A stretch of DNA of 64,000 bases from a virus, in IMG/VR virus record IMGVR_UViG_3300040801_001025, positions 20,499 through 84,498 of that record. One strand, given 5' to 3'. The position numbers were made by a program, and so were the translations under genes. Of this stretch, positions 46,091-46,228 are shown piece by piece. The notes beneath the pieces are model-generated. The model did not search any database. It was not told the origin of the DNA and worked only from the letters and a program-made list of their open reading frames with translations. Numbering within the stretch: the first letter of the stretch is position 1; each line of letters starts with the position of its first letter.

Positions 46091-46228
46091 ATCAAGAGGG
46101 ATAATATTACGAGTGGTTACTGCGGAGCCGGTTTACGCTAGCGTTGAACCAGTAACCTGAGTGTGGGAAATTAGAGCAAAGAGTGACACACCTCAAGCGA
46201 ATGACTCTAATACTCGTACCCTTTTGAT
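46091..46228 (+). ncRNA. putative structured ncRNA of unknown family (multi-stem junction plus pseudoknot)
   Basis: nested complementary segments ATCAAGAGGG/CCCTTTTGAT, TACGAGT/ACTCGTA, GGTTACT/AGTAACC, TGAGTGTG/CACACCTCA and crossing ATTAGAG/CTCTAAT. Confidence 0.55.

What the first reader, a model, noticed from the sequence alone, without database searches (positions are those of the whole stretch)
46091..46228. Unidentified ~140-nt structured RNA between DHFR and tmRNA
Seen: almost every base in this intergenic stretch fits a nested helix. There is a 10-bp closing stem, TACGAGT/ACTCGTA, a GGTTACT/AGTAACC arm with inner hairpin, a TGAGTGTG/CACACCTCA arm, and a 7-bp pseudoknot ATTAGAG(46170-46176)/CTCTAAT(46205-46211). 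G.U pairs favour the plus strand. It ends at the tmRNA late promoter, so it is probably a separate RNA. Inference: a novel ncRNA, ribozyme or riboswitch-like element in a phage RNA cluster.
Basis: partly seen in the sequence, partly recalled or inferred. Interest (0 to 1): 0.7.

Follow-up and report, generated by a model that had tools for sequence, protein, structure and literature searches.

The report
Folded phage RNA joined head-to-tail
A tightly folded 145-base stretch between a large phage's DHFR gene and its tmRNA gene appears in an environmental RNA library joined end to end, so it may be a small circular RNA, though a repeated DNA array is not ruled out.

Summary
The plus strand folds at -42.3 kcal/mol (z -3.8). 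The 5'/3' closing duplex is a real outlier: none of 1726 genome positions of the same geometry match it. Overall stability is not exceptional for this genome, and the pseudoknot is only plausible. The element has no Rfam match and no homologue anywhere I could search. Two related jumbo phages with the same permuted tmRNA lack it.

One public metatranscriptome holds a 168-nt contig, 99-100% identical. It runs 46165-46230 and then straight back to 46086-46187. This is a head-to-tail joint of a 145-nt unit (46086-46230). The joint sits at the foot of the closing stem, inside a 4-nt direct repeat (ATAG).

My best reading (0.35) is a discrete RNA cut at the two single-stranded AUAG sites and sealed into a circle. 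The genome encodes an RNA ligase and a polynucleotide-kinase-like protein. The main rival (0.3) is a tandem DNA array collapsed in the assembly. There is no evidence for a ribozyme or a riboswitch. Everything new rests on one low-depth contig, so this is promising but unproven.

The parts
46086..46230 (+). 145-nt unit. Its last base is joined to its first base in the RNA-library contig. Because of the ATAG repeat, the true boundaries may lie up to 4 nt further right.
   Evidence: the joint runs 46230->46086 ('goes back 145', both=4, side=66). Pieces 46165-46230 and 46086-46187 lie on one 168-nt contig.
46086..46089 (+). Left ATAG direct repeat. It contains the DHFR stop codon TAG at 46087-46089.
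   Evidence: It is single-stranded in the 261-nt context fold.
46231..46234 (+). Right ATAG direct repeat.
46090..46100 (+). 5' strand of the closing stem (TATCAAGAGGG). It pairs with 46219-46229.
   Evidence: The closing duplex is -19.5 kcal/mol, matched by 0 of 1726 background positions.
46101..46107 (+). 7-nt bulge ATAATAT between the two closing helices.
46108..46114 (+). TACGAGT, which pairs with ACTCGTA at 46212-46218.
46115..46157 (+). Arm GGTTACTG...CAGTAACC, with a weakly paired tip that contains the palindrome CGCTAGCG.
46158..46195 (+). Candidate stem S1, TGAGTGTG/CACACCTCA. Its loop holds ATTAGAG.
   Evidence: -6.8 kcal/mol. It is not in the MFE. The nested alternative that uses it folds at -40.4.
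46170..46211 (+). Stem S2, ATTAGAG/CTCTAAT. It is in the MFE and forms a pseudoknot if S1 also forms.
   Evidence: -5.3 kcal/mol.
46212..46229 (+). 3' strands of the two closing helices (ACTCGTA, then CCCTTTTGATA).
46226..46233 (+). GATAAATA, a T4-late-promoter-like motif for the tmRNA. It straddles the unit's 3' boundary.
   Evidence: The motif ATAAATA(G/A)..GTATA is conserved upstream of the tmRNA in L084 and L085. Exact TATAAATA occurs 11 times in the window against 3.9 expected.
45562..46089 (+). Context: the DHFR gene. The unit begins within its last five bases (the final base of the last sense codon plus the stop codon).
   Evidence: Pfam DHFR_1, E 1.6e-29.
46243..46655 (+). Context: permuted (two-piece) tmRNA with tag ANDAFYDEEIALAA.
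   Evidence: RF04321 at 98.5 bits, plus ARAGORN.
46678..47364 (+). Context: ClpP-like protease gene.
   Evidence: (CLP_protease, E 6.4e-17).

Best explanation
The element is a discrete, phage-encoded, highly folded RNA of about 145 nt at 46086-46230.

Proposed mechanism:
- It is transcribed as the tail of the DHFR message.
- It is released by cuts in the two single-stranded AUAG motifs that flank the foot of its 18-bp closing stem.
- Because the stem holds the two ends side by side, an RNA ligase seals them into a small covalently closed circle.
- The closing loop would read AAUAG.
- The candidate ligase is the phage's own Rnl-type enzyme, helped by its polynucleotide-kinase-like and phosphoesterase proteins.
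- A circle would resist exonucleases and accumulate.

Shown:
- The fold.
- The exceptional end-to-end complementarity.
- A head-to-tail joint at the stem foot in one RNA-library contig.
- The presence of ligase and kinase-like genes.

Inferred:
- That the joined form is RNA and circular.
- Which nuclease cuts. I suggest an RNase E-type enzyme, because both sites place a U two bases after the cut.
- Which ligase seals.
- Any function. My guess is a stable structured RNA that also stabilises or ends the DHFR message just before the late tmRNA promoter.
For: -: one 168-nt contig of metatranscriptome run X1 lies on 46165-46230 (1 differing base) and continues directly into 46086-46187 (0 differing bases). 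This gives a 145-nt head-to-tail period. The contig covers the whole unit plus a 23-nt overlap.
- A 4-nt overlap cannot create such a joint in a 31-mer graph, so reads must span it (inference).
- The joint falls 0-4 nt outside the 5' strand and 1-5 nt outside the 3' strand of the closing stem.
- That closing duplex is unmatched in 1726 background positions.
- The unit folds the same way as a circle: -38.7 kcal/mol, z -3.67, matched by 0 of 300 shuffles.
- The fold is also unchanged inside a 261-nt context, where both AUAG sit in an internal loop.
- The plus strand folds better than the minus strand.
- The genome encodes an RNA ligase (PF09414, E 1.9e-9; phrog_548, E 3.6e-17), a polynucleotide-kinase-like protein (phrog_505, E 4.3e-17) and a metallophosphoesterase.
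[quoted passage not shown] Both AUAG sites fit this if the cut precedes the A.
- Circular forms of a bacterial non-coding RNA are on record: DucS (PMC10504365, abstract).
Against: - The only evidence for the joined form is one contig of depth 3.1 in one run of one study.
- Contigs cannot show strand, ends or level, and DNA can be present in an RNA library (tool notes).
- A 4-nt direct repeat exactly at the joint is what slippage, a tandem duplication or polymerase template-switching would leave. For unrelated cut sites it is expected only about 1 time in 256.
- Head-to-tail contigs are very common in metatranscriptomes. One survey found 10,183,455 putative circles of 100-10,000 nt, of which only 11,378 were classed as viroid-like (10.1101/2022.07.19.500677, passage).
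- No homologue exists to show conservation or covariation.
- Two related phages with the same tmRNA lack the element.
- RNA ligase and kinase genes are common in T4-like phages (my own knowledge), so their presence is weak support.
- Overall folding energy is not exceptional for this genome: 135 of 2812 windows do as well.
Confidence: 0.35

Rival explanations
1. The phage DNA carries a tandem array of the 145-bp unit. This could be in the strain sampled by run X1, or in this genome with the array collapsed to one copy by short-read assembly. The joint would then simply be the boundary between neighbouring copies. Each boundary would recreate the late-promoter-like GATAAATA, so each unit could be its own small structured-RNA gene.
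For: - The joint lies in a 4-nt direct repeat (ATAG). This is the signature of duplication by slippage, and of an array that ends a few bases into the next copy.
- The one differing base in the overlapping part of the contig would fit copies that differ slightly.
- The record is a metagenome-assembled fragment, and repeats with units longer than the assembly word length are often collapsed (general knowledge).
- The unit's 3' end carries part of the promoter motif, so a duplicated unit would bring a promoter with it.
Against: - The assembly shows 1.03 copies.
- Nothing in a duplication model explains why the unit's limits coincide within 5 nt with both feet of an exceptional closing stem, unless the unit is a functional RNA gene.
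- No tandem arrays of this unit were found in any other record.
Confidence: 0.3
2. The element is an ordinary stable hairpin at the end of the DHFR message. It would act as a barrier to 3' exonucleases or a weak terminator or insulator ahead of the late tmRNA promoter. The head-to-tail joint would then have been made in the tube, either by reverse-transcriptase template jumping between the two AUAG motifs that the stem holds together, or by ligase during library construction.
For: - It begins within the last five bases of an intact-length DHFR gene, one base before the stop codon, and ends at the next promoter.
- The structure is confined to the unit. The 261-nt context has z -1.09.
- Microhomology at the joint is typical of template switching (general knowledge).
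- Relatives do without the element.
Against: - The consensus scan found 0 terminator-like sites in 45000-47000. The U-run after the stem is only four bases and is itself paired.
- An artefact that affects a minority of molecules should not become the assembled path of a contig with mean word depth 3.1 (inference).
- Even in this reading, a discrete RNA with ends at the stem foot is needed.
Confidence: 0.15
3. The element is a small non-autonomous mobile element of the MITE type. It has 11-bp terminal inverted repeats and a 4-bp target duplication, inserted between DHFR and the tmRNA. The joint would be the excised circle of such an element.
For: - The terminal inverted repeats TATCAAGAGGG and CCCTTTTGATA match at 10 of 11 positions and are flanked by ATAG on both sides.
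- A circle holding one copy of the flanking repeat between abutted ends is what copy-out-paste-in insertion sequences make (general knowledge).
- Related phages lack the element at this site.
Against: - There is a single copy in the 84.5-kb record.
- It was found in 0 of 10 related phage records and gave 0 credible hits in 47 further loci.
- The 21-mer has no match in 185,579 species genomes.
- The unit's last bases belong to a promoter motif conserved in relatives that lack the element. This argues against a foreign insert with these limits.
- No transposase was seen.
Confidence: 0.07
4. The element is a self-cleaving ribozyme unit, or a DNA copy of a viroid-like or retrozyme-like circular RNA. 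It would be processed from multimers by its own catalytic core, which spans the joint and is therefore invisible in the linear genome.
For: - A head-to-tail contig and a branched, highly paired fold.
- A hairpin loop pairing with a downstream segment, the same general topology as some small ribozymes. Pistol is described this way in PMC4604425, section 5.
- Pistol-bearing circular RNAs, and one that was really a segment of a dsDNA phage, are reported from metatranscriptomes (10.1101/2022.07.19.500677, passage).
Against: - No Rfam family matched either strand of 45900-46750 at E<=10.
- There is no CUGANGA hammerhead core on either strand of the dimer. The best candidate has one mismatch.
- A single DNA copy with only 4 repeated bases cannot supply a complete ribozyme at both ends.
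- At 145 nt it is well below known viroids, which span 220-450 nt (passage).
Confidence: 0.05

Closest known systems
DucS and other bacterial circular non-coding RNAs (PMC10504365, abstract read)
   Same: A small bacterial-type non-coding RNA seen through permuted (head-to-tail) reads. It is not an intron, has no ribozyme, and its circularisation mechanism is unknown.
   Different: DucS was validated by RNase R, northern blots and cRACE. Here there is one contig. This element is phage-encoded, its joint sits at the foot of a long closing stem, and it has no sequence relation to DucS.
Viroid-like covalently closed circular RNAs from metatranscriptomes (10.1101/2022.07.19.500677, passages read)
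   Same: Detected the same way, as a contig with a head-to-tail repeat. The fold is compact and branched. It comes from an environmental RNA library.
   Different: No ribozyme was detected. At 145 nt it is below the 220-450 nt of viroids. A near-identical DNA copy sits in a dsDNA phage genome, so it need not replicate as RNA.
DRT2 template RNA for rolling-circle reverse transcription (PMC12039810, passages read)
   Same: A pseudoknotted RNA whose template region (120 nt there, 145 nt here) is flanked by short identical motifs (ACA...CA there, AUAG...AUAG here). The product is head-to-tail repeats whose junction rebuilds a promoter. Here the junction would read TTGATA-17 nt-TAATAT.
   Different: No reverse transcriptase gene was seen in the 84.5 kb. 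The concatemer has stops in every frame. There is no sequence similarity.
3'-UTR-derived stable RNAs released by RNase E (PMC5222698, listing abstract only; PMC7398697, listing only)
   Same: It lies directly after a stop codon. It is bounded by single-stranded A/U-rich sites with a U at +2, and its stable stem would protect it.
   Different: Those RNAs are linear Hfq-type regulators that end in a terminator. Here there is no terminator, and the ends appear joined.
Phage T4 stable RNAs C and D (recalled, no call)
   Same: Stable RNAs of unknown function, about 120-140 nt, encoded among translation-related RNA genes of a T4-type phage.
   Different: The T4 RNAs lie in the tRNA cluster and are cut out by tRNA-processing enzymes. 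No similarity was tested because no sequence was at hand.
Pseudoknot domain of standard tmRNA
   Same: A pseudoknot-capable segment lying immediately 5' of the acceptor piece. A leftover of an ancestral duplicated tmRNA gene would sit in this position.
   Different: The structured tmRNA model starts at 46243. The beta_tmRNA model covers 46187-46242 only with unpaired 'promoter' columns. A conserved promoter lies between the element and the tmRNA. The two related phage tmRNA genes have no such segment.

Membership tests
Any Rfam 15 family | A covariance-model match. | tested here: not met
   nothing matched in 46086-46234 on either strand, even at E<=10. Only the tmRNA models matched nearby.
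tmRNA (as part of the neighbouring gene) | Covered by base-paired columns of the tmRNA models and present in related tmRNA genes. | tested here: not met
   RF04321 starts at 46243. RF01850 aligns 46187-46242 only to unpaired leading columns; the coding genes upstream abut the promoter in 2 of 2 relatives.
Intrinsic terminator | A short G+C-rich hairpin followed by a run of U. | tested here: not met
   0 terminator-like sites in 45000-47000. The only U-run (4 bases) is paired in the closing stem.
Self-cleaving ribozyme / viroid-like circular RNA | A recognisable catalytic core. | tested here: not met
   One search found none in the linear sequence. One search found no hammerhead core on the dimer.
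Self-cleaving ribozyme / viroid-like circular RNA | A core that spans the head-to-tail joint. | not testable with these tools
   The Rfam scan accepts only the window or stored loci, so a permuted dimer could not be scanned.
Self-cleaving ribozyme / viroid-like circular RNA | A head-to-tail (circular or multimeric) form in RNA data. | tested here: met
   one contig with the joint 46230->46086.
Bacterial circular non-coding RNA (DucS type) | Resistance to RNase R, and a junction confirmed by divergent-primer RT-PCR. | not testable with these tools
   This needs bench work. Only the permuted contig is available.
MITE / insertion-sequence derivative | Terminal inverted repeats and a target-site duplication. 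| tested here: met
   the inverted repeats match at 10 of 11 positions, and ATAG lies on both sides.
MITE / insertion-sequence derivative | Several copies at different sites. | tested here: not met
   One copy in the own genome. Found in 0 of 10 related records and 0 credible hits in 47 loci. The 21-mer gave 0 matches in genome contigs.
DRT2-type template RNA | An adjacent reverse transcriptase gene. | tested here: not met
   Pfam scans of 9, 65 and 26 ORF translations gave no reverse transcriptase family. Only about 25% of the genome is held.
DRT2-type template RNA | A stop-free reading frame through the concatemer. | tested here: not met
   8-12 stops per trimer in all six frames. The longest open stretch is 56 codons.
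DRT2-type template RNA | Short identical motifs flanking the template, brought together by structure. | tested here: met
   AUAG lies on both sides of the closing stem, in one internal loop.

The most novel reading that the evidence does not exclude
Excision of the unit is a regulatory act. At four of the five equally possible cut positions the left cut removes the DHFR stop codon, which lies inside the left AUAG. That would turn the DHFR message into a non-stop mRNA. Its product would then be tagged by the phage's own late-expressed tmRNA next door and degraded through the adjacent ClpP-like protease. The excised tail would be sealed into a small circular RNA. DHFR, the element, the tmRNA and ClpP would then form one phage-run circuit for timed removal of an early enzyme.
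Probability: 0.05. Interest if true: 0.9.

Novelty: new variant of a known kind. Interest (0 to 1): 0.6.

Why it matters
Small circular RNAs that are neither introns nor ribozyme-bearing replicons are barely documented in bacteria. I found none described for DNA phages in two full-text searches. If this element is a circle made by nuclease trimming and phage RNA-ligase sealing, it would give T4-type RNA repair enzymes a second kind of substrate. It would also define a new class of phage non-coding RNA, and would show that some of the millions of unexplained 'circular' metatranscriptome contigs come from DNA phages. If it is instead a collapsed tandem array of structured-RNA genes, that is also unusual and would flag an assembly error. 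Either outcome can be settled with reads that already exist.

Tried and rejected
**Homologue hunt (all empty)**
- blastn of 45900-46700 against 50,697 phage records found no match.
- A 17-mer in viral contigs gave one hit (L003), which reading showed to be a chance match in unrelated high-GC DNA.
- A 21-mer gave 0 matches in genome contigs.
- Covariance model R1 found only itself in the own genome. It found 0 of 10 related phage records.
- In 47 loci, 41 of them viral stretches with the same tmRNA T-arm, R1 gave one 35-nt hit at E 9.7, which I dismissed.
- DHFR-based locus searches gave only relatives at 30-40% identity, with no tmRNA nearby.
- The ClpP-based search gave none.

**Run X1**
- No contig covered DHFR, the tmRNA or the rest of 43000-49000. 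The other three pieces are 18-38 nt matches of other organisms.
- A part without cover proves nothing, so I draw no conclusion about relative abundance from it.

**Other tests**
- Pairing between the unit and the tmRNA was no better than for shuffled units: z -0.17, with 127 of 300 shuffles as good.
- GCTAGC occurs 9 times in the window against 8.9 expected, so there is no signal.
- The sigma-70-like site TTGATA-18-TATGAT at 46224-46253 is one of 6 found against 5.7 expected, so it is not evidence. The TTGATA-17-TAATAT that the joint would create is equally weak.
- No hammerhead core and no open frame through the concatemer.
- By eye I found no group I intron boundaries (U before the 5' site, G at the 3' end) and no bulge-helix-bulge at the joint.
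- The ligase has no relative of solved structure at E<=0.01.

**Calls that failed or did not complete**
- An Rfam scan of 20 tmRNA loci was over the size limit and I did not repeat it.

**Not seen**
- Supplements were closed. The circular-RNA set of 10.1101/2022.07.19.500677 might contain this unit.

Full report
**Setting**

The window is bases 20499-84498 of an 84.5-kb virus record rated about 25% complete.
- Its genes mark it as a large T4-type phage. I found a Gp23 major capsid protein, large terminase, UvsX-like recombinase, gp32-like single-strand binding protein, clamp loader and four tRNA genes.
- The finding lies in the gap between an intact-length DHFR gene (45562-46089; Pfam DHFR_1, E 1.6e-29) and a permuted two-piece tmRNA.
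- The tmRNA matches RF04321 at 46243-46564 with 98.5 bits. ARAGORN gives the tag ANDAFYDEEIALAA.
- A ClpP-like protease gene follows at 46678-47364.

**The observation**

- The plus strand folds at -42.3 kcal/mol (z -3.82; 0 of 200 shuffles as good). The minus strand folds at -35.2 (z -2.58; 1 of 200).
- The strongest single feature is the end-to-end complementarity. The first 24 nt against the last 17 nt give -19.5 kcal/mol, and none of 1726 positions of the same geometry in the window reach that (mean -5.4, sd 2.8).
- The element has four perfect 7-bp helices against 0.48 expected. Only 1.85% of 2000 shuffles have that many.
- Among 11 long intergenic gaps folded on both strands, this one has the lowest z, -3.32. 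The next are -3.29 (the tmRNA 3' end) and -3.04.

Against these points:
- Only 92 of 138 nt pair in the minimum-energy fold.
- After GC correction, 135 of 2812 arbitrary 138-nt windows of the genome fold at least as well.
- The pseudoknot is unproven. Its stems are worth -6.8 and -5.3 kcal/mol, and nested folds using one or the other differ by only 1.9 kcal/mol.
- In a 261-nt context the fold of the unit is unchanged and the flanks add nothing (z -1.09).

**What it is not**

- It matches no Rfam family on either strand at E<=10.
- It is not part of the tmRNA. The paired part of the models starts at 46243. The older beta_tmRNA model reaches 46187 only through unpaired leading columns.
- In two related jumbo phages that carry the same kind of tmRNA, the upstream coding gene runs right up to the promoter motif with no such element. 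The tmRNA model passed its cut-off in 2 of the 5 records searched.
- That motif, ATAAATA(G/A)..GTATA, is shared by all three phages. It looks like a T4 late promoter. Exact TATAAATA occurs 11 times in the window against 3.9 expected.
- The promoter motif overlaps the last five bases of the unit.
- No intrinsic-terminator-like site was found in 45000-47000.
- There is no hammerhead core and no open frame through a concatemer.

**No relatives**

All searches for a homologue came back empty.
- The phage database gave nothing. Species genomes gave nothing.
- Ten related phage records gave nothing.
- Forty-one viral stretches with the same tmRNA T-arm, plus six other loci, gave nothing credible.
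- The rest of the own genome gave nothing.
- A 17-mer hit in IMG/VR was a chance match.
- The closest DHFR relatives are only 30-40% identical and have no tmRNA nearby.
- Covariation therefore cannot be tested, and the element is an orphan. Records very near this genome are withheld by the collection tools, so close strains may exist unseen.

**The new evidence**

- One public run held part of the stretch: a metatranscriptome labelled salt marsh, from one study.
- Laid on the window, it gave one 168-nt contig of mean word depth 3.1.
- Its first 66 bases lie on 46165-46230 with one difference. Its remaining 102 bases lie on 46086-46187 with none. The joint is 46230->46086, 'goes back 145'.
- The contig thus covers a full 145-nt period plus a 23-nt overlap.
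- Four bases (ATAG) fit either side of the joint, because ATAG stands at both 46086-46089 and 46231-46234. The true joint may lie up to four bases to the right.
- A 4-base overlap cannot generate a false joint in a graph of 31-letter words, so reads must carry it (inference).
- The joint lies at the foot of the exceptional closing stem. After joining, the stem would be capped by a five-base loop, AAUAG.
- As a circle the unit keeps its fold: -38.7 kcal/mol, z -3.67, matched by 0 of 300 shuffles.
- The tool warns that contigs show neither strand nor ends, and that DNA can be present in an RNA library. Parts without cover are not evidence, and I use them for nothing.

**How it most likely works**

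I commit to this reading at 0.35.
- The folded tail of the DHFR transcript is cut in the two single-stranded AUAG motifs.
- Both motifs sit in one internal loop in the context fold.
- The ends, held together by the stem, are sealed into a circle.
- Both sites would place a U two bases after a cut made before the A. This is the mark of RNase E sites according to the abstract of PMC5222698 (listing). RNase E ends (5'-phosphate, 3'-hydroxyl) suit an ATP-dependent RNA ligase (general knowledge).
- The genome encodes such a ligase (PF09414 E 1.9e-9, phrog_548 E 3.6e-17), a polynucleotide-kinase-like protein (phrog_505 E 4.3e-17) and a metallophosphoesterase.
- A shared nuclease motif would also explain why the same four bases stand at both ends.
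- Only the fold, the joint and the genes are shown. The nuclease, the ligase, circularity and function are all inferred.

**Rivals**

- **Tandem DNA array (0.3).** A 4-base repeat at the joint is exactly what slippage leaves, and short-read assemblies collapse such arrays. This model does not by itself explain why the unit equals the folded domain, unless each unit is an RNA gene with its own rebuilt promoter.
- **Ordinary 3' hairpin with the joint made during library preparation (0.15).** This still requires a discrete RNA with ends at the stem foot.
- **MITE-like insert (0.07).** It has inverted ends and a 4-bp duplication. However, it is single-copy everywhere, and its last bases belong to a promoter conserved in phages that lack it.
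- **Ribozyme or viroid-like unit (0.05).** No core was detected. A core spanning the joint could not be scanned with the tools at hand.
- Head-to-tail contigs are very common in metatranscriptomes: 10,183,455 putative circles, of which 11,378 were classed as viroid-like. At least one turned out to be a segment of a dsDNA phage (10.1101/2022.07.19.500677, passages). This calls for caution.

**Comparison with known systems**

- The nearest precedent for the best reading is DucS and other bacterial circular non-coding RNAs, whose mechanism is unknown (PMC10504365, abstract).
- The geometry is a template-sized region flanked by short identical motifs, next to a pseudoknot, giving head-to-tail repeats whose junction rebuilds a promoter-like site. 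It recalls the DRT2 template RNA (PMC12039810, passages).
- However, no reverse transcriptase gene and no open concatemer frame are present.
- Two full-text searches for circular RNAs of phages found nothing comparable. I saw only listings from these.

**Verdict**

- The element is a real, bounded, orphan structured element with one piece of direct evidence for a head-to-tail joined form.
- That evidence is thin: one contig of depth 3.1.
- The competing tandem-array reading can be tested with existing reads.
- I score interest at 0.6.

Noticed in passing
window 46243-47364; L084 867-2562; L085 764-1829: In 3 of 3 phages examined, the permuted tmRNA gene lies next to a ClpP-like protease gene. 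It is downstream in the window and in L084, and upstream in L085. In L084 an Acb1-like gene directly precedes the tmRNA. In the window the Acb1-like gene is 3.5 kb upstream, so the block from the metallophosphoesterase to DHFR plus the element looks like an insertion into an Acb1-tmRNA-ClpP module.
   Followed up: partly
G000 bases 533-10005 (locus L097): The part of the record outside the window holds a second DHFR-like gene (533-1069), an RF-1-domain protein that may be a ribosome-rescue factor (1210-1752), four tRNA genes (Thr, Val, Met, Ser) and the RNA ligase (9394-10005). Together with the tmRNA, this phage carries several translation-rescue parts.
   Followed up: partly
window 46306-46438: The segment between the acceptor and coding pieces of the tmRNA is unusually long. 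About 128 nt are aligned as an insertion where the beta_tmRNA model expects 22. L085 also has a long segment, while L084 has a short one.
   Followed up: no
window 29444-29693, minus strand: This 250-nt intergenic gap folds with z -3.04 on the minus strand, the third most structured of the 22 gap-strand folds. It was not examined further.
   Followed up: no
joint of window 46224-46230 with 46086-46107: A head-to-tail junction would place TTGATA 17 nt before TAATAT, and would also place GATAAATA in front of the unit. Each copy in an array, or a circle copied into DNA, would thereby gain promoter-like sites. By the scan's own statistics such sites are common, so this is weak.
   Followed up: partly
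window 33252-36738: There is an NAD-salvage pair: a cytidylyltransferase/NUDIX-type gene and a nicotinamide phosphoribosyltransferase. A homing-endonuclease gene at 34504-35241 separates them.
   Followed up: no
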